DNA of 64,000 bases, from NCBI GenBank assembly GCA_000002445.1, contig CP000070.1, positions 1,088,001 through 1,152,000 on the forward strand, given 5' to 3'. Made by a program: the position numbers and the translations under genes. Below are positions 7,237-51,871 of the stretch, piece by piece. How positions within the stretch are numbered: the first letter of the stretch is position 1; each line of letters starts with the position of its first letter. Source of the stretch: Trypanosoma brucei. Lineage: Eukaryota. Below the pieces are notes generated by a model. The model was not told the origin of the DNA and did not search any database. It saw nothing but the letters and a program-made list of their open reading frames with translations.

Positions 7237-8040
7237 GGTAGCGATCTTCTTCCGCTACGAAACTGAAGGTGAGTGACGCGTTAGTGCTCGCTAGTGGGGA
7301 CAGGTGTTGTTTTTCTTTTTGTTTGTTTGAAGAGAAGAACGTTTTTTCGTTGGAAGGTGACGAAGTCCAGCTTCCACACGGGGGAAGGAGAGTATGCGCA
7401 TCTTTTTTTCCTATTTTGACTACCAATTGGCTCTGCACCTGTGATGAAGGTGGAGACACTTCTATCCGATGGAATAACCGGCGTGTTCTAACGGTATCTC
7501 ACTGCGGAGAATTATTGTTTGCGTACGCATTATTCGCCTCCTACTTTTCCACTCGTTACAAAGAGTGAAAAGTAACCAATACGCCATCAGGGACGCTTTG
7601 ACAAGGGACCCAGCAAGTGAGTGGTCCACCTGGTGAAGCTGAATTTCAGTTGTCTACCTGCGGGGAGGGGGGTGTGACGTTGGAGGAGACTTGACTTTCA
7701 TTTCTTCATACTTCTAGCCCTGGCCCCATTCTGTACACATGTATATGTATGTGTATGTGTATGTGTATGGGTGTGTGCATATACTCTGTGGTTGCTCATA
7801 CCATAACGGGTGGAGGTGTGGTGTGGTGGGACCACCTGTGCCGGCACTTGAGTCACCCGTCAAAAGCTTGAGAAGAAGCGAACAACACAACCTCCTGCTT
7901 TCACCCCCGAGATGCGCGGAATGGCACCTCAGCGGGAACGTTGTGGCGATATTTCCCCTCCGATCCTTCCCCGCAACGTACTTACAAAGAATATGCACAA
8001 CAGGACCCTTGTTAGGGTAAAGCGTATATGTGTGTGTCGC

Positions 8041-8095
8041 ACATTCTTCGTTTATTTCACTCTATTGGTGGTATTTTTTTTTTCCTGTTTGTTTA
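8041..8095 (+). promoter_or_regulatory. Polypyrimidine tract upstream of the 8162 CDS, a probable trans-splicing or polyadenylation signal
   Basis: A T/C-rich run (cattcttcgtttatttcactctattggtggtatttttttttcctgtttgtttac) lies 70-120 nt upstream of the ATG, which is the typical kinetoplastid arrangement. Confidence 0.4.
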
Positions 8096-8161
8096 CAAGG
8101 TAGGGTTGTCGCATAGCTTGAGACAATAGCCGTGCTGTGAAGGGGACCCAAATAAGCAACG

Positions 8162-11100
8162 ATGGGTAATGAACCCTTCTTGTTGTTTAGGGGTAGCGAG
8201 CTGCTTCCAGGCTTTCCGTCAAGCCGGCCGGAAGGGAATTTGGCTCAACCCGACGAAGGTGACGTGGAGCGTTTGCCGACGCATCTGATTCCCATTGAAC
8301 CTCTCACACACTCCGTGGTGCGAGTCGTCTGCCATTCTTCCACCCGTGCGGGTATGTCAACGCCACTTGCCCAAATGTGCGCACTAACTGATGTCCGTAG
8401 ATTGTTGGAGGAAGAAAGAGATAAATGCGTTGAGACGGCTCGGTCGTGGGAAGGACTGTGCGCACTTCACTCACACTATCCCCACGATCACGCCACAGGC
8501 TGCATGCCAATAGCAAACGAAGAGTTAGACTGTGTGGCGTCCAGCTTATCCCTGGATGAATCTTTTGTCAAGGAAGTTCTTCGGAGCAAACTCTGGAGGG
8601 TGAAAGGCAACGCTGAAAGTGCGGATGGTAAGGTCGAACCTGATTTGAAGCGCCTCAAAATAGTTGTGTCTGATTTGTGCCAGCTTCTGTGGCACCATCG
8701 TGATGGAGAGGGGTCCATAAGCACCGACGGTGTTGCTGTGCCAGACTCGAGTGAGCGCTGTGAAGTCGTTAGACGGGAAAAGAGAAAGGCATCAAAGGTC
8801 GAGGCAAAGAGCGTTTTGTCCATTATCGCAGGACTAACAAAAGACAGTTTGGACGAACTCACAGCCAGCCATGGCAGCGTAGAGCCCCTCCTTGTGGGTT
8901 TAGTCTTTAGTGAGGTGTCGGAGGAAACTTGTAATCATAGCGGAGGAGAGACGGTTGGAACGCTCGTGGGGGATGATTTGCTGAGGCTGTTCGACAAAAA
9001 GGTTGAGGCCACTGTGGAAAACAAGGATGGTTACGGTGATACAGTTGATTTTTCTGCCCGGGTACTGCTCCTTAACGCTGTTATGGAGAGGAAGAACATG
9101 AAAAACATGGCCCATGCCTCTCCAATGTGGTCAGCGCTCCTGTCGGTGGTAAACTTTGTGTATGTCACTGGTGATCCTGCAACTGTCCGTTACGTCGCTC
9201 AACTGATCAACCATGTGCAATGTTTGACACAACAGGTCACTGCGGAGCCCGCACCTAGACCGCATTCAAAGGTGGACATCTCTCTTTTTTACACTCCTCT
9301 GATGGGTGTTGAGAACGAGGAGGGTCTTTACCCAAGTGGTGCACGCTGTGTTTCCAACCTAAAGACCGCGTTGTCGGAAGCAGTCGTTGGCGTGGCGAAT
9401 AAAAAAAGATGGAAACCGGAAGCTTTTTCCCCTGGCGGTTCGGGAGGATTTCAGGATTTGTTGCAATGGTCACTTATGCTGGAGCACGTGTGGCACCACT
9501 GCGGCAGCGCCCCCTGTCACAAGGTTTCTCGGGGGATAGAGCAATGGATTGGCATGGCTGTTGAGACGGCTGCCGATATCTTCGCGTCTACTGCGGAGGC
9601 TTTGCTGCTTTCCATGTATGTTATGGAGCCACTTCCTCCTGTATGCCTGCCTGTAGCGGACAACACAGAAACTGCTGTCAAATCGGTTGCTGGTTCACCG
9701 GGTTTCAGTGTGGGTGATGTTCTTCTTTCTGCGCATCGTGTATCGTTGTTGGTCTTTGGAGCTGTTGTAGGTCCATGTGCTTCTGACAACCCTCTGCTTC
9801 GGCGGGAGGCACTGGAGGACCTTTACGGGGCTCACCTGAAAGCATCTGAGGCAGTAAGGGGACGACTAGAACGGTTTTGCGCGCGGCAGGCCGAGCGCAC
9901 TGTGGATGCTTCGCCGGCACTAAAAAATCTGGAAAAATATCAAAGTCAGTGGAGTAAGACAGTCGAGCTTGAGCAGGGTAAAAAGGGGGATTCCCTCGCA
10001 CGCATTTTATACGTGTGCATGGAAGGAATGCATCATATTTTAAGTACACCACTTATTAAACATTGTGACGTTCCATATGATCTTGGCGAAAACGCCATAG
10101 CAGGCGTTGATGGTTGGCGTTGCAGTGGCGCTACCACCTCGTGCGTGGGAAGGACGACTACCAATTGTGGATACGGCGCAAAGGTGAACCAGAGGTGCCA
10201 GGTGACCGAAAGTCCAATTACTTCATCATGGGCTTCGGCTGCAAAATCTTCTGCGATTTGCAACTTCACAATGCAACGCCTCCTGCCGATGTTGCTACAC
10301 TCATTAGGGCAGCAACCGGTGGTTTTGAATGGGAACTCTATCGTTAATGTTGGAACGCGCAGGGCCGTGCAGTCTTGGGAAGATCAGCGGATGCAACTGG
10401 AGGGACGGTGTAGGGCGGCTGAGGCGATGATTGAGCACCAACGGTGCGTGATAGGCGAGATTAGAAATCAAAGAAGTGCACTTGGGAATCGACTACGTGA
10501 GGCACAACGGTGCATGAGAAAACTGGTTATGATGTGTGTGGGGTATGAAGAAGGACACGCGAGCTACGCCCAGAAGTTAGCTTTTCGACTGAAATATAGC
10601 TTGGAGGAAGATATCACTAGTATTTTCGTTCCCATTGAGGTAAAGCCGGTTGCGGGATCGGATGCTTGGGACGGCGGGGAAACTTCTCAACAGTCATCTC
10701 CGTCGCCGTTGGTGTGCGGTGAAGCTTCAATGGTAGCACCCTTAGCGGGCCGGGACGATCTGCGCAGGTTAATGTTCCGCGATGCGCAAATGCAACTCGA
10801 CGCTTGCCACAATGTCGTGCGGTGCGTTTGTCAAGAAGCTCGGGAAAACCTCAATACACTTTCAGCTGCCATGATGGAGTGCAGTATAAGTTACGGAAAT
10901 GTCTCCCCCAACGAGTCGTTGCGCGCAATGTTTTCCACTTCACTTTACGGAACGAGGACGAATGAACCCAGCGGTGGTTACATGCCCCCTACTGGTGATC
11001 AAGAATGTGACTGTGACGGCAGTAACCAAGGTGATATGTACCAAAAAGATGATTCAAAGCACACATATCCCTCTACAATCATCAAAGTACCCCTGGGGTT

Positions 11101-36664: not shown

Positions 36665-37117
36665 CCCAACCGCTGGGGAGAAGAGCAATAATGAAGGTAA
36701 CACATCCCAGCAATGTATCGCTGGTAATAAATCAGTCATGTGGTGGCTTTGCATCTTAATTAAAGTTCTACCTTGTGACAAAGGGCTGCAGCCTATGCTA
36801 GGAAGTAAAATGGAGCGTTAATTTTATTCGGTGGGGAGTATTATTGTAAAGGTCCCTCAATAAACGTGTAAGACGTAACCCAAAGTAGGGGCTTAAGGAA
36901 GGATGGAAGGGCACTAGAGCATGTGTCCAGTCGCAGGTGCACACGCATAAGCCCCAATGTTCCTCTCCTTGTATTCCCGTGTTCCGCCTACACGCGAACA
37001 CCCGTACAAACTCAAGAGCACAAATCACTGCATCATTGTTTCTCTTCACTCTTCCCATAATTTTTCAATGTTTGCACAGACCCCATAGCAAGTAAGTGGA
37101 GAAAAAGGTAACACACA

Positions 37118-37858
37118 GTGAGTAAGAAAAGCAGCAACGACGAGAAACAAAAGTTTGGCGTAATGGTGATGAAGGCTTTCCCCCTTTCCCTGTTAGCGGC
37201 AACCACTGTGTTATTACTGCTGCTTCCTGTTCCTGGTAGGTGTGCTGATTGCTTTGCTCATTCAAATGATTACTCCACTCCCGGGGAGCCGTTCGGCAAA
37301 TCGAAGCACACAATCACCTTAAGTGGTGGGAACTGGGGCACTGTCATAGGCAGTGACGGAAATGCACTAAAGACGGCCCTTCTACTTGACATTTACGCTC
37401 AAATACTGCGACGGCATGCTTTTAACACTTCCGTCACCGTCGACGATATGCGACAGGGAGAGCATGGCATGGAAGCTGAAGTAACCGTTACACAGGTTTT
37501 GTTGACTGATGTCCCTAGGGCCGACTTGCAGCATACATGGAATCCCAACGAAATAACATCGTTGTTAATGCAAGGGGTGTACAAACACACAAAAGATAAA
37601 CACGATCCGCATTCAGACGTCCATCTCGTTAGTGTCAGACTCCCCGCTGCGACTACAGAGCTCCACAAGTGTGGGAAGGCCTGTTGGACTGTTCGGTTAA
37701 TAGGCATCTTTATAGGGATAGCCATGATTCTCATTGCAGCATACACTATATTCATAACGCGTAAATGGGAAAAGCAAGCGGAAAAAGAACCGGATGACGA
37801 CTCTTCGCGGGAACCATTGCCAGAACAAGAACAGAGGAGGTCGAGAACACGCGTGTAG
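37118..37858 (+). CDS. Small type-I membrane protein, copy A of a 4-member family (signal peptide, about 150-aa ectodomain, one TM, short charged tail)
   Basis: MVMKAFPLSLLAATTVLLLLLPVPGRC forms a signal peptide. The C-terminal LIGIFIGIAMILIAAYTIFI is a TM segment followed by a charged tail. The motifs KTALLLDIYAQILRRHAF, LQHTWNPNEITSLLMQGVYKHT and LHKCGKACW are shared with the paralogues at 46100, 47900 and 49539. The likely true start is the Met at 37163 or 37169. Confidence 0.6.
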   Translation: MSKKSSNDEKQKFGVMVMKAFPLSLLAATTVLLLLLPVPGRCADCFAHSNDYSTPGEPFGKSKHTITLSGGNWGTVIGSDGNALKTALLLDIYAQILRRHAFNTSVTVDDMRQGEHGMEAEVTVTQVLLTDVPRADLQHTWNPNEITSLLMQGVYKHTKDKHDPHSDVHLVSVRLPAATTELHKCGKACWTVRLIGIFIGIAMILIAAYTIFITRKWEKQAEKEPDDDSSREPLPEQEQRRSRTRV

Positions 37859-37879
37859 CATCGTTTCATTAGCAGCGGC

Positions 37880-40800
37880 GACAACAATCCGAAGTAATGC
37901 GCGGTTAGTTGCGGACAACATTCCACTGCGTCTCTTTGATATACTTTTTTTTGCTTTTGCTTTTCGCTGCATATACCAGCACCCCACTCCACGTGTGGTG
38001 AGGAGCTTGGGGTGGCATTCTTTGTTTGAACGCCTCCCATCCCCTTTTATGTTATTTTATGTTTTTTTTCCCCCTCTTGCTCGTTTATTCCCGCCCACCT
38101 TGTTGCTTTGACTGCCCTATGTACGACTGATAAATATGCATTGGACAACACATGGCTACTATTCAGTGTCTAAATACATCTTGCACACGCGGTCTTCCTG
38201 TTACTGCATGCACGGAAACTACTTTGAGCCCCCCCTTCCTTTCCCTCCCTACTTTTTCATCTTTCATATTATACCACATACATTTTGTGTATTACTCATT
38301 TTACCGTTAGCACCACCTTGCAAAGTTGTTAGCGTAATATGGGAATGTGTGTATTATATACTTCCCAATTGAATCCATATTCGGGAAGTTTTCTGTCTCC
38401 TCACTCGCCTCGTTGAAATCCTGTTAGTTGTCTCGGTATCAATGATAATATTGATGTGTGTTGAATGGTGGTTTATGGATGTGACTGTATTTTGTTGCGT
38501 ATGAACCACTGGAATGATTAAAAGGTCCTTTTAGCACTGCGGGGTTATGAATATTAATAGCCTGCACTCGTGTCAATGTATCTGGTAGTATTTTCACACC
38601 CCACCCACGTGCAACTTTTTACCTTTGCTCTGAGTTATTCTACTCCACACACCCATCGTTGCAACATTATTGGAAGTTAAGTGCTTTAGTAGTCATTAAT
38701 TTTGTAACGACTCTAATTAACGCGGTTCCGGTCGACAAAATTAAGCACTGCTGACACCCACTTCTTTATTTCCCCCACCTGGAAACAATGACTCGGCAAT
38801 CCGATGTGCAAAAATCCATGAGGACAATTTCTGATGGAGCGGAAAAGGCAGTAGAAGTACGGAAATATGACGAGAAAGCGGTGCAGCAGCGGATGCAGAA
38901 ACTTTATGCCGATGTGGCGAAAAAGAAATTAGCTGAGAAGAAGCGAGCTGATGAGTTGGCGCAGATCCCGGTGTCGGAGGAGGATGTGCAACTTTTGGTG
39001 CGTGAATGCGGTTGGGAGGCGCAGGTGGCACAACAGAAACTCCGTGAGAGGAATGGAAGCGTTGTGGCGGTTCTTCGAGATGTTGCGGGACTCCCGAAGG
39101 CCAAAGCATCGAGTGGAACCTCCTGAAACCTGACAAACAAAAAAAAACATTTACAATATAATGGTTATGACTGATTGAATGAGAGCAGCAGCGAGAGAAA
39201 CGGAAGTTGGCGGGGCCCTTTTGGTTGACTTGTTACGAGATGCTCAGAGGTGTGGAGCGTAAGCATGTGTGTAATCCCACTGAAGACAATTGCATGGTGA
39301 TGCAGGGGATGTTTGAGTTCATACAAATCTCAAACAAACACTGTAGAGGCGTTGAACTCATTAATGTCAAACTCCATCTGATTATTTCAGGCACGAATGC
39401 CCTCATGTAGGATGAAAAGGATTGCCACTTCCTTCATGTCGCAACGGATTCGCTATCAATTGCAACAGCTCCGACCTACAGCTTGTTGTGAGTTTTTAAC
39501 GCGCTTGGACTTCGGTAATGAACTTGGAACTTGATTTCCTGAGGATCGCCGCGGTGCATAATTTGTTCCTTCCCCATTTGATGTGAGCAGTGCGGTGCAC
39601 TTAACCATTGTGGTATCACTGCTTCGCTTTCTATGAGTGTGTGCTGTACAAATCTAATTCCTCTTCCACTATTTACCGTATTTGAAGCTCATTAAAGGAA
39701 CCATAATTAGCAAAGGGGGCACACTCAGTTGTCAAGGCAGTGGAACCCACAACATCCGCGCACAGCGGTGACACAAATGCATAATAGCTGCTTTTCATAC
39801 ACCTCTATTGTGGGGATGTTGATTCTCAAAGCGTAGTGGTTGTAATTTGAAATCAGGCATGGAGCGTCTGGGTAGGCGCATCGAGGCCAATCGCTTTATT
39901 ATGGGACAGTTGGATGGTATGCGAGGGTGCACGCCTGCTGTTGGTTGCAGCGGCAGCCTCAAAAAATTAAGTTATGCAACACTCGGTGTATTGCGCCGGG
40001 AGAATATGCGGCGGTGCGGGTGAGCCCTTTCACTGCACTTTGGGCAGCGGGGGTTGGGATGGTATCTACAGGGGATCTACTTCACATTGGAAAGTAAACG
40101 TCACAACTGCTGTCTCGACTGGTCGCTGATAGAACCCGTGAGGTGGAGAGAGAGACTGCTAGACCGGAGTTCCCTTCCAGGACGGATTAGCATCGGCAAA
40201 CCGAGAGGCACAAGCACGCCCTCGTTGTTGAATTACTGATCGGCATTCTGTTGGAGGTATGAAGGAATCGCAGTGGCGGCGGTGTTGATTAAAGTTTGAG
40301 AAACCTCGAGGAAAGGGAAAACCTCGTGTCGCAAAAGTCACTATTTCCCGGGAGTCACACCGGCTATAGAGGCTGAAATTGAATACTTGAGAAAACAGTT
40401 GGGCGACTGTAAAGAACAACTTATAAAATACAGAGCACACTTTGAGCAGGTTAACCACGTTATTAAGAATAGACGAATTAAAGGAAATGGTTCAGCAGCA
40501 AGCTCAGACATTGGAAAAGCTCGAAAAATATTATCAAGAACAAAACGCCCAAAAGGTCCCGTGGCCGCTGATCCTCGGAAACGATGTCTGTAAACCCCCA
40601 ACCTTCCTCCATAGACCGTCAACAGAGCACTCAGATGTACCAACATGTTTCCACTACTCCGCTCGGCTTTAGTATAAACTGGGTCGGATGGAAAAACAGA
40701 GCGGAAACCTCTGAAGGACTTTTACAATTGTATGACGAATGTGGGACTACAATTGGGAATCCTGAGAGGCCTTCATGGTACAATTCTGTAAATTAATGGG

Positions 40801-41515
40801 GGGGAAGTGAATCATCTCTACATTTTTGGACGTTCACAAGATGGGTACGGTATTATGACCACTTCGTGGCTACGGCGAATAGAATGCCAATACAATATAT
40901 AACAACAGGGGCAGCTATGTATAAAACATGGCGAATGGAAATGGCAGCACAGAAAAGAGGAGTATTTATCCCACGGGCAATACAAGAAGGATTGGATACT
41001 GAAGGAGGTATCAATGTATGATAAGATGGCAAACGCAGCTGCAAAACAAAGAGCTCAGAGAAGTCGCCAAGGACGGAATTGAAGCAATTTCAACAACCAT
41101 CAGCGTCGAACAAGCCCAAACGGGCGAAGGAAGTCCCCATCGCGGAAACAGTAGCAAAGGCGAGACTGAGCGGGGCTCGTAAAATATACCGCTCCCGACA
41201 TAAGAGAATGAAACAAAAGGCGAAGAAAGAATGGTCAAAACTACAAATCCACAAGAACAGTGAATATGTTCGAAAACACATGGGAAACAAGAAAATTCTA
41301 TGGGGGTGTTGCGATCCGCGCGCGGATATACGCAACAAAGAGATACGGGGATGCACAAATAAAATAGTAGCTCCGGCACCACCTAACCCAGTGACTGTCC
41401 CCCGCGCGCAGATTAGGCCCTGTTCGTCAGGGAACTCTGAGCGAGAGCACTGTCCGGACCTTAAAATGCCCATTCAAGCACCGGAAGTCAAGCCGATGCT
41501 ATGGCGTAAACTATT
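37880..41515. repeat. Left arm (3636 bp) of a near-perfect inverted repeat
   Basis: The boundaries were located by direct reverse-complement comparison. gacaacaatccgaagtaatgcgcggttagtt starting at 37880 matches the reverse complement ending at 46117. Identity ends after ctatt at 41515, which pairs with aatag at 42482-42486. Every ORF-track peptide inside this arm has an identical mirror on the opposite strand of the right arm. One C/T mismatch was seen near the outer edge, at 37912 versus 46076. Confidence 0.9.
38788..39126 (+). CDS. HYPK-like / UBA-like small protein (copy 1, in the left arm)
   Basis: The 112-aa protein has a long charged helix (KKKLAEKKRADELAQ) followed by a C-terminal EEDVQLLVRECGWEAQVAQQKLRERNGSVVAVLRDV block that resembles the NAC-alpha/HYPK C-terminal UBA-like domain. 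Confidence 0.5.
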   Translation: MTRQSDVQKSMRTISDGAEKAVEVRKYDEKAVQQRMQKLYADVAKKKLAEKKRADELAQIPVSEEDVQLLVRECGWEAQVAQQKLRERNGSVVAVLRDVAGLPKAKASSGTS

Positions 41516-41528
41516 AGGCTGGCATTAA
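40387..41528 (+). mobile_element. Left-arm mirror copy of the 5' part of a degenerate retroelement (frameshifted ORF1-like region plus a basic K/R-rich ORF), truncated at the arm/spacer junction
   Basis: Three overlapping + ORFs in different frames (40387-40593, 40442-40672, 40584-40796) look like one frameshifted coiled-coil ORF. They are followed by 41079-41528, which encodes the basic protein MKQFQQPSASNKPKRAKE.... On the other arm this ORF reads on into the spacer, where RT motifs follow. Confidence 0.45.
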
Positions 41529-42481
41529 CACGCTTGCACGCATTGTTGAAAAAAACTGAACTTCCTCATTATTTCTTGGAACCAGTCTAGCGGCTCAGTT
41601 GCTAATACTTTTGCCGTAGCCACCAGGCTTCCAAATAATTTTTCAAGGTCTCGCAGGTCGATTAATTTCAAATATTCTTGTGTCGTCATCTGAATAAATT
41701 GTCTAGCCACATTATTTTCAATTTATTCAGATGTTTTTCTGTTACTTGTACACTTTTATTATTGTGGTCCAAGACCGCTCCTATGGAATCATAACTGGTG
41801 GCGTAAGGCAGCGGTTCGGATAATGTCACGCAGTATTTCTCCACCTTGCCGTGGAGGAGGCTAATTATTTTTGGCGCTTGTTTTTCCGTAATTGCTAGTC
41901 TGAAATTATCGATCCAGACATCACCGTCTATCATCCGGTGCTCTCAACGCGTTACCTGCGAGTGCCCCGTTAATGTCATTACCAACCACTGCATAATTTC
42001 GCAGCTTGTTGTTAATCCCATGGGCAATTGTGTCATTTCCAAAGGCGAACCATCTGCAGTTGCAATGGAGAAGCATGCGGTGGTGTTTACCGGCAGGTCA
42101 ATTTCATAGTAACTTGCTTTTAAATCACCCACTATTGCTCCAGCAGCGGAGAGTATGTCCAGGTACTCCTGGAACGGGTTTAATTCCACTATACAGCGAT
42201 AATCACACACATTATCTAAATAGTCATTCGTCGTGTTTGGCCATACCAATAGTCTCCTCCTGTTTTTCCAGGGTTCATCGACTGTAGATGCACGGGCGAC
42301 TGGGGGATCCACTGTCGATTTCGTGATATTCGCGCTGAGTACGGTCTTGGCATCACTGGATGATAGCCACTAACGCGCTGGGACGTCGCCTATTTCGTCC
42401 CGTCTTACGTATTGCGCGGCATCGGCTAATTGCCGGAGCAGCACTTGAATTCTTTCTTGCACCTTATTTTTTGTCGAACGC
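41516..42481. other. Unique 966-bp spacer of the palindrome, holding the RT fragment of the retroelement
   Basis: This region has no mirror partner. It is fully occupied by minus-strand ORFs that continue the right-arm retroelement. Confidence 0.8.
41525..42312 (-). pseudogene. Frameshifted reverse-transcriptase fragment (Ty3/gypsy- or DIRS/VIPER-like) with a degenerate YxDD box
   Basis: The minus-strand ORF 41944-42312 contains GDLKASYYEIDL...TTACFSIATADGSPLEMTQLPMGLTTSCEIMQWLV. This is collinear with RT motifs iDLrsGYhQI ... KTAFrt.yG.yEf.vmPFGLtNAPa.FQ. The next ORF, 41686-41934 in another frame, has DVWIDNFRLAIT where VYlDDILIfS is expected. Frameshifts separate three consecutive ORFs. 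Confidence 0.55.
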
Positions 42482-43610
42482 AATAGTTTACGCCATAGCA
42501 TCGGCTTGACTTCCGGTGCTTGAATGGGCATTTTAAGGTCCGGACAGTGCTCTCGCTCAGAGTTCCCTGACGAACAGGGCCTAATCTGCGCGCGGGGGAC
42601 AGTCACTGGGTTAGGTGGTGCCGGAGCTACTATTTTATTTGTGCATCCCCGTATCTCTTTGTTGCGTATATCCGCGCGCGGATCGCAACACCCCCATAGA
42701 ATTTTCTTGTTTCCCATGTGTTTTCGAACATATTCACTGTTCTTGTGGATTTGTAGTTTTGACCATTCTTTCTTCGCCTTTTGTTTCATTCTCTTATGTC
42801 GGGAGCGGTATATTTTACGAGCCCCGCTCAGTCTCGCCTTTGCTACTGTTTCCGCGATGGGGACTTCCTTCGCCCGTTTGGGCTTGTTCGACGCTGATGG
42901 TTGTTGAAATTGCTTCAATTCCGTCCTTGGCGACTTCTCTGAGCTCTTTGTTTTGCAGCTGCGTTTGCCATCTTATCATACATTGATACCTCCTTCAGTA
43001 TCCAATCCTTCTTGTATTGCCCGTGGGATAAATACTCCTCTTTTCTGTGCTGCCATTTCCATTCGCCATGTTTTATACATAGCTGCCCCTGTTGTTATAT
43101 ATTGTATTGGCATTCTATTCGCCGTAGCCACGAAGTGGTCATAATACCGTACCCATCTTGTGAACGTCCAAAAATGTAGAGATGATTCACTTCCCCCCCA
43201 TTAATTTACAGAATTGTACCATGAAGGCCTCTCAGGATTCCCAATTGTAGTCCCACATTCGTCATACAATTGTAAAAGTCCTTCAGAGGTTTCCGCTCTG
43301 TTTTTCCATCCGACCCAGTTTATACTAAAGCCGAGCGGAGTAGTGGAAACATGTTGGTACATCTGAGTGCTCTGTTGACGGTCTATGGAGGAAGGTTGGG
43401 GGTTTACAGACATCGTTTCCGAGGATCAGCGGCCACGGGACCTTTTGGGCGTTTTGTTCTTGATAATATTTTTCGAGCTTTTCCAATGTCTGAGCTTGCT
43501 GCTGAACCATTTCCTTTAATTCGTCTATTCTTAATAACGTGGTTAACCTGCTCAAAGTGTGCTCTGTATTTTATAAGTTGTTCTTTACAGTCGCCCAACT
43601 GTTTTCTCAA
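41525..43610 (-). mobile_element. Degenerate VIPER/DIRS- or LTR-class retroelement remnant on the minus strand: a frameshifted ORF1-like region, a basic ORF (42370-42918) and the RT fragment. It is truncated where it abuts the left arm.
   Basis: The minus-strand ORFs 43404-43610, 43325-43555, 43201-43413, 42370-42918, 41944-42312, 41686-41934 and 41525-41710 are contiguous in one direction. The RT motifs are as described for the RT-fragment pseudogene feature. The element ends within about 10 bp of the palindrome junction at 41515/41516. Confidence 0.5.
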
Positions 43611-46117
43611 GTATTCAATTTCAGCCTCTATAGCCGGTGTGACTCCCGGGAAATAGTGACTTTTGCGACACGAGGTTTTCCCTTTCCTCGAGGTTTCTCA
43701 AACTTTAATCAACACCGCCGCCACTGCGATTCCTTCATACCTCCAACAGAATGCCGATCAGTAATTCAACAACGAGGGCGTGCTTGTGCCTCTCGGTTTG
43801 CCGATGCTAATCCGTCCTGGAAGGGAACTCCGGTCTAGCAGTCTCTCTCTCCACCTCACGGGTTCTATCAGCGACCAGTCGAGACAGCAGTTGTGACGTT
43901 TACTTTCCAATGTGAAGTAGATCCCCTGTAGATACCATCCCAACCCCCGCTGCCCAAAGTGCAGTGAAAGGGCTCACCCGCACCGCCGCATATTCTCCCG
44001 GCGCAATACACCGAGTGTTGCATAACTTAATTTTTTGAGGCTGCCGCTGCAACCAACAGCAGGCGTGCACCCTCGCATACCATCCAACTGTCCCATAATA
44101 AAGCGATTGGCCTCGATGCGCCTACCCAGACGCTCCATGCCTGATTTCAAATTACAACCACTACGCTTTGAGAATCAACATCCCCACAATAGAGGTGTAT
44201 GAAAAGCAGCTATTATGCATTTGTGTCACCGCTGTGCGCGGATGTTGTGGGTTCCACTGCCTTGACAACTGAGTGTGCCCCCTTTGCTAATTATGGTTCC
44301 TTTAATGAGCTTCAAATACGGTAAATAGTGGAAGAGGAATTAGATTTGTACAGCACACACTCATAGAAAGCGAAGCAGTGATACCACAATGGTTAAGTGC
44401 ACCGCACTGCTCACATCAAATGGGGAAGGAACAAATTATGCACCGCGGCGATCCTCAGGAAATCAAGTTCCAAGTTCATTACCGAAGTCCAAGCGCGTTA
44501 AAAACTCACAACAAGCTGTAGGTCGGAGCTGTTGCAATTGATAGCGAATCCGTTGCGACATGAAGGAAGTGGCAATCCTTTTCATCCTACATGAGGGCAT
44601 TCGTGCCTGAAATAATCAGATGGAGTTTGACATTAATGAGTTCAACGCCTCTACAGTGTTTGTTTGAGATTTGTATGAACTCAAACATCCCCTGCATCAC
44701 CATGCAATTGTCTTCAGTGGGATTACACACATGCTTACGCTCCACACCTCTGAGCATCTCGTAACAAGTCAACCAAAAGGGCCCCGCCAACTTCCGTTTC
44801 TCTCGCTGCTGCTCTCATTCAATCAGTCATAACCATTATATTGTAAATGTTTTTTTTTGTTTGTCAGGTTTCAGGAGGTTCCACTCGATGCTTTGGCCTT
44901 CGGGAGTCCCGCAACATCTCGAAGAACCGCCACAACGCTTCCATTCCTCTCACGGAGTTTCTGTTGTGCCACCTGCGCCTCCCAACCGCATTCACGCACC
45001 AAAAGTTGCACATCCTCCTCCGACACCGGGATCTGCGCCAACTCATCAGCTCGCTTCTTCTCAGCTAATTTCTTTTTCGCCACATCGGCATAAAGTTTCT
45101 GCATCCGCTGCTGCACCGCTTTCTCGTCATATTTCCGTACTTCTACTGCCTTTTCCGCTCCATCAGAAATTGTCCTCATGGATTTTTGCACATCGGATTG
45201 CCGAGTCATTGTTTCCAGGTGGGGGAAATAAAGAAGTGGGTGTCAGCAGTGCTTAATTTTGTCGACCGGAACCGCGTTAATTAGAGTCGTTACAAAATTA
45301 ATGACTACTAAAGCACTTAACTTCCAATAATGTTGCAACGATGGGTGTGTGGAGTAGAATAACTCAGAGCAAAGGTAAAAAGTTGCACGTGGGTGGGGTG
45401 TGAAAATACTACCAGATACATTGACACGAGTGCAGGCTATTAATATTCATAACCCCGCAGTGCTAAAAGGACCTTTTAATCATTCCAGTGGTTCATACGC
45501 AACAAAATACAGTCACATCCATAAACCACCATTCAACACACATCAATATTATCATTGATACCGAGACAACTAACAGGATTTCAACGAGGCGAGTGAGGAG
45601 ACAGAAAACTTCCCGAATATGGATTCAATTGGGAAGTATATAATACACACATTCCCATATTACGCTAACAACTTTGCAAGGTGGTGCTAACGGTAAAATG
45701 AGTAATACACAAAATGTATGTGGTATAATATGAAAGATGAAAAAGTAGGGAGGGAAAGGAAGGGGGGGCTCAAAGTAGTTTCCGTGCATGCAGTAACAGG
45801 AAGACCGCGTGTGCAAGATGTATTTAGACACTGAATAGTAGCCATGTGTTGTCCAATGCATATTTATCAGTCGTACATAGGGCAGTCAAAGCAACAAGGT
45901 GGGCGGGAATAAACGAGCAAGAGGGGGAAAAAAAACATAAAATAACATAAAAGGGGATGGGAGGCGTTCAAACAAAGAATGCCACCCCAAGCTCCTCACC
46001 ACACGTGGAGTGGGGTGCTGGTATATGCAGCGAAAAGCAAAAGCAAAAAAAAGTATATCAAAGAGACGCAGTGGAATGTTGTCCACAACTAACCGCGCAT
46101 TACTTCGGATTGTTGTC
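42482..46117. repeat. Right arm (3636 bp) of the inverted repeat
   Basis: It is the reverse complement of 37880-41515, as described for the left arm. Confidence 0.9.
44871..45209 (-). CDS. HYPK-like / UBA-like small protein (copy 2, in the right arm; identical translation to copy 1)
   Basis: A 112-aa translation identical to that of 38788-39126. Confidence 0.5.
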   Translation of the reverse strand: MTRQSDVQKSMRTISDGAEKAVEVRKYDEKAVQQRMQKLYADVAKKKLAEKKRADELAQIPVSEEDVQLLVRECGWEAQVAQQKLRERNGSVVAVLRDVAGLPKAKASSGTS

Positions 46118-46975
46118 AGCACTATTGCTATCAGATATGCCTTCGTTACTTTCTGTTTCCATTCTGGCATCGTCGACGTTTAGGACATTGACTGCATGTT
46201 TATTTGGAGTAGGAATGTCTTCCTCTTCTTCTTCTTCATCTTCCTCTTTTTCTGCATCCCTTCTCCATTTAAAAATTAAGAATACGCAAATTGCAGAAAC
46301 GAGAGCCATAAAAAACAAAATGACGCCCGAGAAGGTTCGCAGAGCCGCGCAGCCCTCCCCGCACCTATGAAGTTTTTCACTTATGGTCGGGTTCTTGACG
46401 CTCAGGAGGCGCACGGCACCGTTGCTACCGGTTTCGCTGTTACCACCGTACTCATTGTACAAGTTGTTTGTGTGTTTATACGTTCCTTGCATTAGTAACG
46501 ACGATATCTCGCTGGGATTCCATGTGTGCTGCATCTTCTCGCTCGGGGTACCATTTATCAAAACTTGCGTAATGGTCACTGTAACACTCATGTGTTTACC
46601 TCGAGTATTTACGTCGTTGATGTCAGCTGTGGTGTCGAAAGCGTGTCTCCGTAATATTTGAGCGTAAATATCAAGAAGAAGAGCCGTCTTTAGTTTCCTT
46701 TCACCCCCCGTATACACACCACCCCACTTATCGCCACTAAAAGTGATTACATGTTTCGATGTGCCCAACTGTTCTTCGTCAGTGGAATTATTGTCCCTCG
46801 GTGTTGCAAAGCAATTTTTCGAGAGAGTGGGCATGGGGATCAGCAACAGCATTGCTGCTGTTGTAAGAGAAAATGAAACCTTCACTGTCATTATGCTGAA
46901 AAGGGCTTTCTCTTTTCCTTTCTTTTTGTAAGCTACCCGTGTTTTACTTCTTTGCTCTAAGCCAAAACTTACCAA
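46100..46975 (-). CDS. Small type-I membrane protein family, copy B. It has a divergent N-terminus and a longer acidic tail. The likely start is the Met at 46891.
   Basis: MTVKVSFSLTTAAMLLLIPMPTLS is a signal peptide. KTALLLDIYAQILRRHAF, MQHTWNPSEISSLLMQGTYKHT and LHRCGEGCAAL match family motifs. The TM segment is VILFFMALVSAICVFLIF. The last 5 codons and the stop lie inside the right palindrome arm. Confidence 0.6.
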   Translation of the reverse strand: MVSFGLEQRSKTRVAYKKKGKEKALFSIMTVKVSFSLTTAAMLLLIPMPTLSKNCFATPRDNNSTDEEQLGTSKHVITFSGDKWGGVYTGGERKLKTALLLDIYAQILRRHAFDTTADINDVNTRGKHMSVTVTITQVLINGTPSEKMQHTWNPSEISSLLMQGTYKHTNNLYNEYGGNSETGSNGAVRLLSVKNPTISEKLHRCGEGCAALRTFSGVILFFMALVSAICVFLIFKWRRDAEKEEDEEEEEEDIPTPNKHAVNVLNVDDARMETESNEGISDSNSADNNPK

Positions 46976-47899
46976 TAATTCGAGTACGGTTGAAGAAAGA
47001 AAGAAAGGGGGGAGTGAAGGGAATCATGTTGGACAGAATCCACAACAAAAATTATAATTAACCGAATGGATCAACTTCATTGTCCAAACAGTCTCTGTTG
47101 TACTGCTGTTGTCGTCACCGTTCATTTGTGGTGAGGGAAGGAATTGTGTGTGCCGATTTATCCTTCCTGTTTTCTCTTAATAACGAGACAATAAAATAAG
47201 TGACCGTTAATATCTTTTATTTTCTTTTCTTCCCCCGGTACTCGAACCGCAAGGCGGGGGAGTCACATATAACGAGAGATCAAAGATACAAATAAATAAT
47301 ATAAAACAGCAGAAGGGCACACACACACATACATATATATATATATACATGTATGAGGGAACGAAATTAAGATAGTTTTTAACAAGGAGGAAGAAATAAA
47401 GCACTGAAAACTAAAAGAAACTCGACGCAACGGCTCTCAATATTCGCCGTACTTTACTCTCAGGGATCGCAGAGGTGTATTTTTTTTTCTTTCCTTGTCC
47501 CATTTCTTTTGGCACCTCCCGCGGCCTGCTCGTGGAAGAATGCACATAATTACGATAACTTACGTTCATGTCATATAAAATAATAATAATAGACAACAAC
47601 GACGCGGTGGCGATGATTGTTTTGATTAAATAACCTGAAGGGGGAAAAAAAAAAGAAACCTCAGTGGAGGAATATTCACAGATGGATGTTTTTTTCATTA
47701 TTATTTTGTTTTTGTTTCTGCGGGTGACAGCCTTTCCTTTAATTTTATTTGTTGGTTATGTACCGCTCATGTCCTACGTTGAGTGGTGGAAGAAGCACAA
47801 AAACAAGACTACAGCACAACTGAGTGAACAAATAAACTAACAACAAAAGTAATCGGATTGAAGCAGTGACGAATAAAACTTTTTTCACTACATATGCCT

Positions 47900-48613
47900 T
47901 TATTTGTTTGTTTCCTCAGTCCTATAGTGGTCTTGATTGTAAGGATGATTGGCATTGCTCTCATCTTTTTCTTTTGGTTCCCCACGGCAACAGTTGACGA
48001 TTAGGTAAATGATCAAAATAAGTAAAGAAACCCCCATTAAAATAATAACTACCATCGCCAGCTTTAATAGTCGCCTGCATGTGTCATCGCACTCACCAAA
48101 ATGCAGTTTTCCATCATGCACCTTCACGGAGATGAGTTCCGGTCTCTTCACACCTTCGTACAAACTTAGCGTTTTACTATAATCCGTCTGCGTAATAAGT
48201 GAATTCACCTCCGCAGGCGGCCAAATGTGTTGCCTCTCAGGATTTGAAACTTGTGCCCTGACGGTTTGTACAACAACTATGAGTATTTCGATAAAGTTGT
48301 GTGTGGGGTCGAATGAGGTAATTAAAACCTCCGTCAGAAAACTTCCATTCCGTTGCACGTAACGATCGATGTCGCTCACAAGTATTTCCCTCAGTTGTTC
48401 CTCTTTCTGCTGGACAGTTGCCGCCCAATTGTCGCCATCAAATTTCACGGTATGTTTTGATGTTGAGGACTGCTGGATGTCGTCAGCACACCTACCAGGA
48501 ACAGGAAGCAGCAGTAATAACACAGTGGTTGCCGCTAACAGGGAAAGGTGGAAAGCCTTCATCACCATTACGCCAAACTTTTGTTTCTCGTCGTTGCTGC
48601 TTTTCTTACTCAC
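47900..48613 (-). CDS. Small type-I membrane protein family, copy C
   Basis: The N-terminal 40 aa are identical to copy A (MSKKSSNDEKQKFGVMVMKAF.LSLLAATTVLLLLLPVPGRCAD), as is the 5' flank. The ectodomain is divergent (RQHIWPPAEVNSLITQTDYSKT; LHFGECDDTCRRL). A C-terminal TM segment and short tail follow. Confidence 0.6.
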   Translation of the reverse strand: MSKKSSNDEKQKFGVMVMKAFHLSLLAATTVLLLLLPVPGRCADDIQQSSTSKHTVKFDGDNWAATVQQKEEQLREILVSDIDRYVQRNGSFLTEVLITSFDPTHNFIEILIVVVQTVRAQVSNPERQHIWPPAEVNSLITQTDYSKTLSLYEGVKRPELISVKVHDGKLHFGECDDTCRRLLKLAMVVIILMGVSLLILIIYLIVNCCRGEPKEKDESNANHPYNQDHYRTEETNK

Positions 48614-49538
48614 TGTGTGTTACCTTTTTCTCCACTTACTTGCTATGGGGTCTGTGCAAACATTGAAAAATTATGGGAAGAGTGAAGAGAAACAATGGTG
48701 CAGTGATTTGTGCTCTTGAGTTTGTACGGGTGTGCGCGTGTATTAAGTCAAGAAATGAGTGAGATAACAATGACCAATAAACAGGAGTCAGAAAGAGTAT
48801 TTGTACAAAGAAAAATTAGTGAACGATGCGGGAGAGCAACAACACAAGCTCAATAACAATAACGGAAAAAAGCAATGAAGACGACAGTCGCTTTGCCTAC
48901 TTGTCATCACAAATGTTAATTTCCTGCTGATGGGCAATAACCCAATGCCTACCCTCGGTAATTTGGTGAGATTCAGAGAAAAAAAGCAAAGGAATGTGGG
49001 AATTTCTTCGATCGAATGGAAACCCCTCAAAAAGGAGGAAAAAGTAAACATACGTAAAAATAACTCCCCCTCCTTCTGTCACACGAATATACAAGAATAT
49101 ATGTATTTTTACGCACACGTGAATTAAATGTTGCGCGCAACAAGAAATAAAACACAAGAGAACTTACATTGCCATTTTTTGTTTTAGTATCATCTGTTTA
49201 AGACAAATATCAACCGGTGAAGCACAAAGAGTTGTTGAAACAGAGATAAATAGATAAATTCAATAGTGTATATGAAGCACGGAGTGATGACAGTCGAAAA
49301 TACGAAGGAACGGGATGCGCATAACACAGAAGAGTGAATACGGTGCAATGACAAATCAAAAGAAAAAATACAACTCACTCGATATCATGAGACTTCTACA
49401 ATCAGAAAGCATTTGCTATTAGCGTGGAAAAAGAATGAAGAAGCAATAAAATATGTATAACAATGGCACGTACCTATAGCCACAGCTAGTATTGGGGGCA
49501 TCGAACCTGATGGGGCTAGTCCGCCGTTTTCGGTCACT

Positions 49539-50219
49539 TTAATCCCTTTCTTCAAGTTTCGGACGCCGGAAATGCGAATAAATCCAAATGTACGCCGTCA
49601 CACTAACTATTATGGTCATAGCAGCGAGAGACACGGCCACCACACCTCTAAGAATTTGACAGCTCGTGCCACATAATGGCGGACCCGGGGGAACCAAAGG
49701 AAGTCTGACGGTAATGAGTTCAACATCCCCATGGGGTTTGTACGTGCTTTTTGTGTGTTCAAATTTTCCCTGCATTATCATAGAGTTGGCCTCACTGGGA
49801 TTCCACACATGCTGCAACTCAGGCGTGGGGTCATCAGCCAATGCAACTTGTGTAACGGTCACTTCAACTTCCATTTCCCCCTCTCTCACTTTCATATTGT
49901 TGATGGTAACGGTGGTGTTGACGGCGTACTCCCGTTGCGTTTGCAAGTAAATGTCGAGCAAAAGTGACTTCCTCAACTTCGCTTCATCACTTATGACAAT
50001 TTCGTCCCATTTCGTGCCTTTAAAGGTGATTATGTGCTTCGATTTGCCGAACTCCGTTGGTTGCAAGTACAACATCGTACCATTGAGGCAGTCAGAGTGT
50101 GCGGGAACAGGAAGCAGCAGTAATAACACAGTGGTTGCCGCTAACAGGGAAAGGGGGAAAGCCTTCATCACCATTACGCCAAACTTTTGTTTCTCGTCGT
50201 TGCTGCTTTTCTTACTCAC
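49539..50219 (-). CDS. Small type-I membrane protein family, copy D
   Basis: It shares the N-terminus and 5' flank with copies A and C. Family motifs are RKSLLLDIYLQTQREYAV and LQHVWNPSEANSMIMQGKFEHT. The TM segment is VAVSLAAMTIIVSVTAYIWIY. Confidence 0.6.
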   Translation of the reverse strand: MSKKSSNDEKQKFGVMVMKAFPLSLLAATTVLLLLLPVPAHSDCLNGTMLYLQPTEFGKSKHIITFKGTKWDEIVISDEAKLRKSLLLDIYLQTQREYAVNTTVTINNMKVREGEMEVEVTVTQVALADDPTPELQHVWNPSEANSMIMQGKFEHTKSTYKPHGDVELITVRLPLVPPGPPLCGTSCQILRGVVAVSLAAMTIIVSVTAYIWIYSHFRRPKLEERD

Positions 50220-51871
50220 TGTGTGTTACCTTTTTCTCCACTTACTTGCTATGGGGTCTGTGCAAACATTGAAAAATTATGGGAAGAGTGAAGAGAAACA
50301 ATGGTGCAGTGATTTGTGCTCTTGAGTTTGTACGGGTGTGCGCGTGTATTAAGTCAAGAAATGAGTGAGATAACAATGACCAATAACGCTACTTGATGAT
50401 GGAAACAAAAAGGGTACACGCATAAGAAGTCTACCACCATTCCATGGTGTGATTATTGCAAACTCGAAGGTAGTGTCGATTAACCACCCAGACGAGCCAT
50501 CTCCAGTTGTCGTTACTGTTGTTAATAGACCGAAAACAAGCCCTAGTAAGCGGTTAATTACTGGAGGAAGGATTTGCTCCTCTTTATTGGTGCTGCATAC
50601 TAACTTGTTATCATTGTTCCTTCAGCACTGCTGTTCAGTACGATAGGAGGAGGGGATTTGAATATATATATATATATATAAACAACTTTGCAGAACCAAA
50701 ATGCATCACTGAATTCCAACGAAGCGTTAAGACGAAAAATGATAACCCCCTCTCAGCATTGTCGACGCCAAGTTTATCGTTTTAAATACAAACATGCACG
50801 GAAATACGTATGATGCGTGCCCATAAACCCGTTGGATCAAATATTCACGCGGCGGCACTCTGTAAAATATAAAATGCCCGTCATGCGGCACGACGGAACG
50901 AGCGGGTCAACTTGTGGTTTCTACCCTTTTGTATCTTCAGGGCGCAATGGTGCTTCCACAACGCACCGAAGCTACTCAATGTCGGTTCACTATCGTGTGG
51001 CAACTTCATGACTAGGCCATTTCGATTTTGAAGTTATACTTCACTACTTAGTCGCCCCACGCTCCATTTCATTTGGAAGTACCGTATCTAACGCGGTGCC
51101 AAGGCTTGTTTTTGCTCCTTTGGCAGAACAAAAACATTCAGTAGCAAACGGTTGGCAGTAAAGTTTGAGATGGGCCGACTAAGAACTCAGAGCCGTTGGC
51201 GCGGATGTCCCCACGGGTTGGTTTAGTATGCCCAAGTGACGTGCTCAGTGAGTTCTTCAGCTGAGTCCTTACGTATTGTGTGAAGGCCGTAGTTAAGCGG
51301 CAGCATTCGTGGGGCCAGATTATTTGACCAAATAGCTGCGACAAGTGAAGGAATACCTTCAGCAGCCTAGTTCTTGTCCATAGTTCCCCTAGAGATAGCT
51401 CTTATGAAGGAGAAAAAGTGAAGGCAACCCATTGGATGTTAGAAGTGAAGCGACGCGAAAGGGGGAAACAGTAAATCTTGCGGATGAAGAAATGCAAACG
51501 TATATCTCATGAGAGTTTGGCTCGAAAGGGAGGCGTTTTGTCAAAAGCGTACGAATGGAAAGGGAAAGAAGGGACAAGTGGCATTTGCGTACTCCCTTTA
51601 AAGTTAGGAACCACAGTTGCACGTCTTCCCGGATGCTCATCCATCCACCTCTTCGCACTGTCACCAGGGCCCCCCTGCCGATTGGGACATGGCTCTCATA
51701 TCAAATAACGCTTTCAAAAGCCTTAACAATTAATAGTCATAAATAATAATAATAATATTGATAGTAGTCGGCACGATGCTGTGCCATGAACGAAGACCGA
51801 CATCCATTCAGTCACAACGCAGTTTCACGCCGTGGAGAACTGCAACGCTGGATTCAGCTTTTTCCTGGTGA

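What the first reader, a model, noticed from the sequence alone, without database searches (positions are those of the whole stretch)
36990..50390. Four-member family of small type-I membrane proteins: an identical 5' flank, start region and signal peptide, but diversified ectodomains
Copies A (+), C (-) and D (-) share at least 250 bp of identical sequence, from about 130-170 bp upstream of the ATG through the first 40 codons (MSKKSSNDEKQKFGVMVMKAF.LSLLAATTVLLLLLPVPG). This shows up as identical antisense ORF-track peptides at 37065-37313 and 48418-48666, and at 48369-48719 and 49951-50325. Downstream of the signal-peptide cleavage region the proteins diverge strongly. Only short motifs persist (DIYxQ, QHxWNPxExxSLxxQG, a Cys pair before the TM). 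Copy B is divergent at its 5' end but shares its 3' end with the palindrome, as noted in the arm-boundary finding. A conserved 5' UTR and leader with hypervariable mature domains is typical of surface-exposed families under diversifying selection and points to shared post-transcriptional control elements. The extra 15 codons before MVMKAF are probably conserved 5' UTR rather than coding sequence.
Basis: seen in the sequence. Interest (0 to 1): 0.55.

Follow-up and report, generated by a model that had tools for sequence, protein, structure and literature searches.

The report
Known trypanosome surface-protein family, shared leader
These four genes are the already described Fam79 surface-membrane proteins of Trypanosoma brucei (ESP12, ESP13, TbEVMP1 and a fourth), and the identical 5' stretch in three of them is best explained by repeated copy-correction between the genes, not by a conserved control element or fast-evolving outer domains.

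Summary
Copies A (37163-37858 +), C (47900-48568 -) and D (49539-50174 -) share a 245-283 nt block at 98.8-100% identity. It runs from 174-212 nt upstream of the ATG to codon 24-28, then identity stops abruptly.

The window is T. brucei TREU927 chromosome 7. The genes are Tb927.7.4230, .4260, .4270 and .4280, the published Fam79 family (ESP12, ESP13, TbEVMP1/Fam79.3, Fam79.4), which are experimentally localised surface or flagellar membrane proteins.

The block evolves in concert. Strain-specific variants are shared by A, C and D within each genome. The same layout recurs in T. vivax and T. grayi at the DNA level, and in T. congolense at the protein level. Ectodomains instead group by paralogue type across species (Tbr_C + T. 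congolense 100% bootstrap).

The ectodomains are not hypervariable. Orthologues are 93-99.6% identical between subspecies, and dN/dS is 0.3-0.5.

Stage regulation follows the 3' flank, not the 5' block. A and B share a palindrome arm and are both bloodstream-up, while C shares A's 5' block but is procyclic/stumpy-biased.

The family is already known.

The parts
37163..37858 (+). Copy A = Tb927.7.4230 = ESP12 = Fam79.1 (231 aa)
   Evidence: 100% identical to XP_846046 / UniRef 'Enriched in surface-labeled proteome protein 12'. The gene ID comes from the Gadelha 2015 supplement.
46100..46891 (-). Copy B = Tb927.7.4260 = ESP13 = Fam79.2 (263 aa). It has its own diverged 5' end and leader.
   Evidence: Its first 22 residues are 23% identical to those of A, C and D.
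47900..48568 (-). Copy C = Tb927.7.4270 = Fam79.3 = TbEVMP1 (222 aa), the most divergent ectodomain ('C-type')
   Evidence: It matches Pfam PF23398 at 31.7 bits against a cut-off of 27.5. It groups with T. congolense CCC91533 at 100% bootstrap.
49539..50174 (-). Copy D = Tb927.7.4280 = Fam79.4 (211 aa)
36989..37248 (+). Homogenised 5' module of A: polypyrimidine tract (about 37033-37077), candidate splice-acceptor AG (37078-37079), about 83 nt of 5' UTR, and 28 leader codons
   Evidence: The AG and pyrimidine-tract assignment is inferred from sequence only.
48483..48780 (-). Homogenised 5' module of C. It is shared with A up to 48742 and with D up to 48780.
50104..50386 (-). Homogenised 5' module of D. 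Identity to A and C ends 15 nt earlier inside the leader, after PVP.
37880..41515 (.). Palindrome arm 1, which forms the 3' flank of A. It contains a HYPK-UBA gene (38788-39126 +) and a Fam79 D-like relic (39255-39392 +).
   Evidence: one mismatch between arms, at 37912. for HYPK. for the relic (tblastn E 1.3e-8).
42482..46117 (.). Palindrome arm 2, which forms the 3' flank plus the last 18 nt of the ORF of B. It contains HYPK (44871-45209 -) and the relic (44605-44742 -).

Best explanation
The locus is the known Fam79 family of Trypanosoma brucei, sitting at the two ends of a convergent strand-switch region on chromosome 7. It encodes four invariant type-I membrane proteins. Each has a cleavable leader, one ~115-residue ferredoxin-like (SEA/MAD-like) juxtamembrane ectodomain, a CxxxC pair, one TM helix and a short, paralogue-specific cytoplasmic tail.

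The paralogue bodies are old and are kept distinct by purifying selection. There are at least two lineages, C-type and A/B/D-type, and they predate the T. brucei / T. congolense split.

A ~250 nt 5' module covers the trans-splicing signal, the 5' UTR and the part of the ORF that is removed from the mature protein. In A, C and D this module is repeatedly overwritten by gene conversion between the copies, which lie in direct and inverted orientation 1.6-13 kb apart. Conversion tracts stop where sequence similarity collapses and where a change would alter the mature protein.

The same process keeps the 3.6 kb palindrome arms identical. Those arms give A and B the same 3' flank.

Stage-specific expression is most likely set by the 3' UTRs, not by the shared 5' module.

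Shown here: the identity of the family, the block anatomy, concerted evolution, the conflict between leader and ectodomain phylogenies, and the low divergence between strains. Inferred: the splice-acceptor position, 3' UTR control of stage bias, the neutrality of the homogenisation, and the SEA/MAD-like fold.
For: Family identity:
- (100% matches to TREU927 proteins named ESP12 and ESP13).
- (gene IDs).
- (the four paralogues named Fam79.1-4).
- (localisation).

Concerted evolution of the block:
- In the block (-174..+69), the dinucleotide at -136/-135 is AC in A, C and D of TREU927 (and in copy A of T. equiperdum OVI, the only OVI copy covering the site). It is GT in A, C and D of T. b. gambiense and T. 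b. equiperdum.
- Other variants (-24, -21, +20 Pro/His, +66) are distributed across paralogues and strains in combinations that no tree can produce.
- Synonymous divergence in the leader is 0-0.05. In the adjoining ectodomain it is 0.6-0.8, which is saturated.

The same layout in other species:
- T. vivax: an identical block from -144 to +97, then an abrupt break.
- T. grayi: -212 to +52 at 98%.
- T. congolense: three paralogues with identical first 23 residues.
- Leaders are under 25% identical between species.

Ectodomain tree:
- Tbr_C + Tco 100% bootstrap.
- A+B+D+Tco_3410 80%.
- Species monophyly 0%.

Palindrome arms: 1, 3 and 20 differences within a genome, against about 55 between TREU927 and gambiense.

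Expression:
- Tb927.7.4230 and .4260 are both 'up' in long slender versus procyclic forms.
- Paralogue-specific qPCR for .4230 gives log2 -2.43.
- Tb927.7.4270 is up in stumpy forms and procyclic-preferential.

Background: partial gene conversion that spans UTRs and start codons is common in T. brucei arrays (Jackson 2007).

Against: - Gene conversion and selection for identical leaders are not mutually exclusive. Recurrence of the same module boundaries in four species could mean that sameness itself is selected.
- Copy B escapes homogenisation, and I have no demonstrated reason for that.
- The expression data come from the literature. 5'-tag methods cannot separate A, C and D, because their 5' ends are identical; only the qPCR for A is paralogue-specific.
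- dS is saturated, so the dN/dS values are rough.
- The T. congolense evidence is at protein level only.
Confidence: 0.8

Rival explanations
1. The 5' block is held identical by purifying selection on a functional element. Candidates are a 5' UTR translational or mRNA-stability element, an optimal trans-splicing signal, or a leader tuned for ER import. The paralogues would then be co-regulated through it.
For: The same module (about 150-210 nt upstream plus the leader) is kept identical among paralogues in T. brucei, T. vivax and T. grayi. Its 5' edge lies just upstream of the polypyrimidine tract and candidate AG. Its 3' edge lies at the predicted leader cleavage region in every species.
Against: - Selection on a peptide or an RNA motif would not remove every synonymous and non-coding difference. 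pS is 0-0.05 in the leader against 0.6-0.8 next door.
- The sequence itself is not conserved between species; leaders are under 25% identical.
- Strain-specific variants are shared across paralogues.
- A and C share the block but differ in stage bias. B lacks it yet behaves like A.
Confidence: 0.12
2. A single recent event, such as a segmental duplication or one-off transplantation of a 5' cassette onto older genes, produced the identity. There is no continuing exchange.
For: Very high identity with sharp edges. The locus is structurally dynamic: it has a palindrome, and gambiense carries a tandem D-C-B duplication.
Against: Variants that arose after the T. brucei subspecies or strains separated are shared among paralogues within genomes, and they are reshuffled. 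Independent species-specific leaders are homogenised in T. congolense, T. vivax and T. grayi. Both require repeated events.
Confidence: 0.05
3. Assembly artefact: repeat collapse or mis-joining in the TREU927 reference created the identical blocks and the perfect palindrome.
For: Perfect or near-perfect repeats are classic assembly hazards.
Against: The same block structure, gene order and palindrome appear in independent assemblies of T. b. gambiense DAL972 and T. b. equiperdum, and partly in T. equiperdum OVI. Each assembly carries its own variants.
Confidence: 0.02

Closest known systems
Fam79 of the African-trypanosome cell-surface phylome (ESP12 / ESP13 / TbEVMP1; Tb927.7.4230-4280)
   Same: These are the same genes. 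All four window proteins are 100% identical to the TREU927 entries. The four paralogues, their type-I topology, their surface or flagellar localisation and their stage bias are all published.
   Different: Nothing differs in identity. This analysis adds four points I did not find in the papers I could read: the 5'-module concerted evolution, its recurrence in other Trypanosoma species, the homologues outside T. brucei, and the SEA/MAD-like fold prediction. Shimogawa 2015 was not available to read.
Partial gene conversion in T. brucei tandem arrays (Jackson 2007, BMC Evol Biol 7:54)
   Same: Both show chimaeric copies, with non-coding flanks and start-codon regions homogenised while the coding bodies diverge. 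That paper found chimaeric gene copies (putative partial gene conversion) in 21 of 47 arrays.
   Different: This array is not mentioned in that paper's main text. Here the exchange also crosses an inverted pair (A versus C/D) across a strand-switch region. The same module boundaries persist in several species.
SEA domains and MAD12/MAD28 membrane-adjacent domains of metazoan mucins, TTSPs and protocadherin-15 / cadherin-23
   Different: There is no sequence-profile match to SEA and no G/SVVV autoproteolysis motif. Foldseek does not single these domains out. This is a resemblance of fold and position, not demonstrated homology.
Pfam PF23398 'FAZ1 conserved domain'
   Same: 12 of 17 family members match at E<0.01, and copy C is above the gathering score. 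Giant Leishmaniinae, Angomonas and Leptomonas proteins carry up to 14 repeats that match ectodomain residues ~40-80.
   Different: A, B and D score below the cut-off (13-17 bits). FAZ1 is, from my own knowledge, a cytoskeletal protein, whereas these are leader-plus-TM surface proteins. The shared element is a domain, not a shared function.
Large surface-antigen families with conserved ends and hypervariable centres (for example T. cruzi MASP; named from my own knowledge)
   Same: A conserved leader and 5' flank next to divergent mature regions.
   Different: There are only 3-7 copies per genome. The mature domains are invariant between strains and under purifying selection. The paralogues are orthologous across species.

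Membership tests
Fam79 / ESP12-ESP13 family (T. brucei) | Sequence identity to the named TREU927 proteins and gene IDs | tested here: met
   All four copies are 100% identical to XP_846046, XP_846049, XP_846050 and XP_846051. ESP12 = Tb927.7.4230 and ESP13 = Tb927.7.4260. All four are listed as Fam79.1-4.
Fam79 / ESP12-ESP13 family (T. brucei) | Type-I topology: N-terminal leader and a single C-terminal TM segment | tested here: met
   Each copy has two Kyte-Doolittle peaks, at residues 1-28 and about 165-210. AF2 predicts helices 7-19 and 172-206. No dedicated signal-peptide predictor was available.
Fam79 / ESP12-ESP13 family (T. brucei) | Cell-surface, flagellar-pocket or flagellar-membrane localisation | not testable with these tools
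   Literature only.
Pfam PF23398 FAZ1_cons | Score at or above the gathering cut-off (27.5 bits) | tested here: inconclusive
   C scores 31.7 bits. A, B and D score 13.1, 16.6 and 13.3 bits. 12 of 17 relatives match at E<0.01.
SEA / MAD membrane-adjacent domain | Sequence-profile match to the SEA family | tested here: not met
   No SEA hit at E<=1 for the four copies, and none at E<=0.01 for the 17 relatives.
SEA / MAD membrane-adjacent domain | Ferredoxin-like alpha/beta sandwich whose closest structural neighbours are SEA or MAD domains | tested here: inconclusive
SEA / MAD membrane-adjacent domain | G/S[VI]VV autoproteolysis motif in the beta2-beta3 turn (present in only some SEA domains) | tested here: not met
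   Read from the alignment. The turn in copy A reads DDMRQGEHGMEAEV and has no GSVVV-like motif.
Concerted evolution by gene conversion (process) | Strain- or species-specific variants shared among paralogues, and conflict between the phylogeny of the tract and that of the rest of the gene | tested here: met
Hypervariable surface-antigen family under diversifying selection | High variability between strains and dN/dS above 1 in the mature domain | tested here: not met
   Orthologues are 93-99.6% identical. dN/dS is 0.31-0.50, with dS saturated.
ISG / ESAG families | Profile match to a described ISG or ESAG domain | tested here: not met
   No such Pfam family appears at E<=1.

The most novel reading that the evidence does not exclude
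The 'leader module' (trans-splicing signal, 5' UTR and signal peptide) is a selected, exchangeable cassette. It is kept identical among functionally diverged Fam79 paralogues throughout the genus Trypanosoma: T. brucei, T. congolense, T. vivax and T. grayi each have their own version. On this reading, equal mRNA processing, translation or ER entry of the paralogues matters, for example for stoichiometry or for competition for a common partner. In addition, the ectodomain would be a true SEA/MAD-type juxtamembrane domain, shared with the repeats of the giant FAZ1-domain proteins.
Probability: 0.15. Interest if true: 0.5.

Novelty: already known. Interest (0 to 1): 0.3.

Why it matters
The family itself is catalogued. 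This check removes a tempting misreading, namely a hypervariable antigen family with a conserved regulatory leader. It replaces that reading with a documented case of concerted evolution confined to one module.

Three practical consequences follow.
- Assays based on 5' tags or the spliced leader, and short reads generally, cannot tell A, C and D apart.
- Stage-specific control should be looked for in the 3' UTRs, one of which A and B share through the palindrome.
- Homologues exist across Trypanosoma, so the UniRef label 'T. brucei spp.-specific' is wrong.

The SEA/MAD-like fold is a testable lead for the function of invariant surface proteins that are potential drug or vaccine targets.

Tried and rejected
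- The AlphaFold-database fold search (afdb50) was not installed.
- Shimogawa 2015, the primary Fam79 paper, is not held. The Siegel 2010 supplements are not held, so no splice-site or poly(A) coordinates could be obtained.
- Foldseek against the PDB gave no significant hit.
- There are no tRNA genes at the strand-switch region.
- I guessed that the ORFs in the palindrome spacer (41686-42312 -) were a retroelement relic. Pfam gave no support, so I dropped the idea.
- I looked for a donor for the clustered substitutions in gambiense copy B among all paralogues and in both loci. None was found.
- The GTG-initiated ORF coordinates from the ORF listing were rejected as bacterial-code artefacts.
- Literature searches for 'SEA domain' + T. 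brucei + AlphaFold, and for 'EVMP1', returned nothing.
- T. congolense DNA could not be fetched, because those proteins have no contig in the collection.
Full report
**What is there.**
ORF listing and repeat finding confirm four homologous ORFs: A 37118/37163-37858 (+), B 46100-46891 (-), C 47900-48568 (-) and D 49539-50174 (-). They also confirm near-identical blocks at the 5' ends of A, C and D.
- A versus C: 260 nt with 3 mismatches.
- A versus D: 245 nt with 2 mismatches.
- C versus D: 283 nt with 0-1 mismatch.
- The block occurs only three times in the window, so it is not a dispersed repeat.
- It begins 174 nt upstream of the ATG when A is compared with C or D, and 212 nt upstream when C is compared with D.
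- It ends after codon 28 (PVPGRCAD) in A and C, and after codon 24 (PVP) in D. Similarity then falls abruptly to about 70% (A-D) or to nothing detectable at the DNA level (A-C).
- The 'MSKKSS' extension starts at a GTG and comes from bacterial ORF calling. The deposited proteins start at MVMKAF.

**Identity.**
All four proteins are 100% identical to Trypanosoma brucei brucei TREU927 chromosome 7 proteins. UniRef names A and B 'Enriched in surface-labeled proteome protein 12' and '13'.
- Gadelha et al. 2015 (PMC4587319) give ESP12 = Tb927.7.4230 and ESP13 = Tb927.7.4260.
- They localise ESP12 to the flagellar pocket and endosomes, and ESP13 to the whole cell surface.
- They note that Fam79 of the Jackson 2013 cell-surface phylome is well represented in the surface proteome.
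- A bioRxiv preprint (10.1101/2020.10.07.330316) states that Tb927.7.4230, 4260, 4270 and 4280 are the four Fam79 paralogues studied by Shimogawa et al. 2015.
- The same preprint shows Tb927.7.4270 (TbEVMP1) in the procyclic flagellar membrane and in extracellular vesicles. It reports that 4230 and 4260 are more highly expressed in bloodstream forms and 4270 in procyclic forms.
- The family is therefore already known and partly characterised.

**Genomic setting.**
All long ORFs up to 37858 are on the + strand, and all from 46100 onward are on the - strand. No tRNA genes are present. The family therefore sits at the ends of two converging transcription units.
- Between A and B lies a palindrome with 3,636 nt arms (37880-41515 and 42482-46117) and a 966 nt spacer. 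The arms differ at one position.
- Each arm carries a HYPK-type UBA gene and a 46-codon relic of a D-like Fam79 gene (tblastn E 1.3e-8).
- The outer arm boundary falls inside what is coding sequence in B. A's 3' UTR still reads ...SSGDNNPK* in frame, which matches B's C-terminus ...SADNNPK*.
- The palindrome is present in T. b. gambiense and T. b. equiperdum. Arm-to-arm differences are 3 and 20, against about 55 between TREU927 and gambiense. It is therefore real, and the arms evolve in concert.

**Why the 5' block is identical.**
I fetched the orthologous loci from T. b. gambiense DAL972, T. b. equiperdum and T. equiperdum OVI.
- In the 243 nt core of the block there are 11 variable sites.
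- The dinucleotide at -136/-135 is AC in A, C and D of TREU927 (and in copy A of OVI, the only OVI copy covering the site). It is GT in A, C and D of gambiense and T. b. equiperdum.
- Variants at -24, -21, +20 (the Pro/His polymorphism also seen in the proteins) and +66 are distributed among paralogues and strains in combinations that require exchange between paralogues.
- Synonymous divergence in the leader is 0-0.05, against 0.6-0.8 in the adjacent ectodomain.
- This is concerted evolution by gene conversion, not conservation of a sequence element.

**The same anatomy elsewhere.**
A profile search of 1.84 billion representative proteins found about 20 small relatives in T. congolense, T. vivax, T. 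theileri, T. melophagium, T. grayi, T. cruzi, T. conorhini and T. rangeli. The family is therefore genus-wide, not T. brucei-specific.
- Three T. congolense paralogues share identical first 23 residues.
- T. vivax paralogues share the first 32 residues.
- Between species the leaders are under 25% identical.
- At the DNA level, T. vivax paralogues share -144..+97 at 99.6% and then break.
- Two adjacent T. grayi paralogues share -212..+52 at 98% and then drop to 72-76%.
- The ectodomains group by type, not by species. Tbr_C with T. congolense CCC91533 has 100% bootstrap, A+B+D with TcIL3000_7_3410 has 80%, and monophyly of any species has 0%.
- The T. vivax locus is syntenic: WD40 gene, then Fam79, then HYPK.
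- Jackson 2007 had already shown that partial conversion spanning UTRs and start codons is common in T. brucei arrays. That paper's main text does not mention this array.

**Are the ectodomains hypervariable?**
They are not.
- Orthologues differ from TREU927 at 1-18 amino-acid positions across the subspecies compared (A 1-2, D 2-3, C 6, B 2-18).
- Nei-Gojobori dN/dS between paralogues is 0.31-0.50. dS is saturated, so these values are approximate.

**Does the block confer shared regulation?**
The available data argue against it.
- Nilsson et al. 2010 list both Tb927.7.4230 and .4260 as robustly up in long slender versus procyclic forms.
- Their qPCR for 4230 gives log2 -2.43 for procyclic over slender. 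Its primers lie in A's unique 3' coding region (primer sequences, read against the sequence).
- Jensen et al. 2009 list 4270 as up in stumpy forms, and 4270 is procyclic-preferential.
- A and B share only the 3' flank, while A and C share only the 5' block. Control through the 3' UTR is the simplest reading. This is an inference, consistent with what is generally known of trypanosome gene regulation.
- One caveat applies. Methods based on 5' tags cannot separate A, C and D.

**Protein architecture.**
- Hydropathy shows a leader and one TM segment in each copy.
- AF2 on the full-length protein gives a confident ectodomain. The domain-only model has pLDDT 85.4 and pTM 0.77, with beta-alpha-beta-beta-alpha-alpha-beta topology.
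- Foldseek gives only non-significant generic ferredoxin-like hits, and there is no SEA profile match.
- I therefore call the domain ferredoxin-like, and treat 'SEA/MAD-like' as a lead, not a finding.
- At the sequence level the domain corresponds to Pfam PF23398 (FAZ1_cons). C is above the cut-off, and 12 of 17 relatives match.
- Its N-terminal half recurs up to 14 times in giant proteins of Leishmaniinae and Angomonas.
- The C-type members and most non-African homologues carry a Cys-rich stretch in the C-terminal part of the TM segment and just after it. A, B and D lack it. This might relate to the flagellar-membrane targeting of C, but that is speculation.

**Verdict.**
The 'surface type-I family' reading is correct but already published. 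The 'diversifying selection' and 'shared post-transcriptional element' readings are not supported. The best explanation is module-limited gene conversion in a known family. Interest is modest.

Noticed in passing
window 37880-41515 and 42482-46117: The 3.6 kb palindrome at the convergent strand-switch region differs at only one position (37912 C/T). It is present in gambiense and T. b. equiperdum, with 3 and 20 arm-to-arm differences against about 55 between strains. It therefore evolves in concert and is not an assembly artefact.
   Followed up: yes
window 39255-39392 (+) and 44605-44742 (-): Each palindrome arm holds a degenerate 46-codon fragment resembling copy D residues 119-164 (ERKHVCNPTEDNCMVMQGMFE...; tblastn E 1.3e-8). 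It is a relic Fam79 gene downstream of HYPK.
   Followed up: partly
window 38788-39126 (+) and 44871-45209 (-): A 112-aa HYPK-type UBA-domain gene (PF19026, E 2e-11) is duplicated in the two arms. In T. vivax the Fam79-HYPK unit is instead repeated in tandem on one strand (L007).
   Followed up: partly
window 37859-37897: A's 3' UTR reads HRFISSGDNNPK* in frame after its stop codon, matching B's C-terminus ...SADNNPK*. A premature stop truncated A's tail, and the palindrome boundary lies in ancestral coding sequence.
   Followed up: yes
L001 (T. b. gambiense) 388-10792: In gambiense the D-C-B triplet is tandemly duplicated as a ~6.3 kb unit. One D copy (388-1022) is frameshifted relative to the other.
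   Followed up: partly
L001 10171-10200 versus window copy B (nt 176-193 of the CDS): Gambiense copy B carries 11 substitutions within 18 nt (GGVYTGGERKL becomes GGVSVQSEKKL), in the predicted beta1-alpha1 loop. No donor sequence exists in either locus, so this is unexplained. It could be conversion from an unsampled allele or local positive selection.
   Followed up: partly
window 41516-42481 (palindrome spacer): ORFs on the minus strand (41686-41934 and 41944-42312) have no Pfam match. The nature of the unique spacer at the convergence point is unknown.
   Followed up: partly
window 37068: The only upstream ATG in the block lies 10 nt before the candidate splice-acceptor AG (37078-37079). 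It would probably be excluded from the mature mRNA.
   Followed up: no
L007 14465-17032 (T. vivax): A retroelement (endonuclease and reverse-transcriptase domains) lies immediately downstream of the T. vivax Fam79 array.
   Followed up: no
L008 1-371 and 3761-4369 (T. grayi): The contig starts with the 3' part of a further Fam79 gene that is nearly identical to the third gene. This suggests a tandem array of alternating paralogue types in T. grayi.
   Followed up: no
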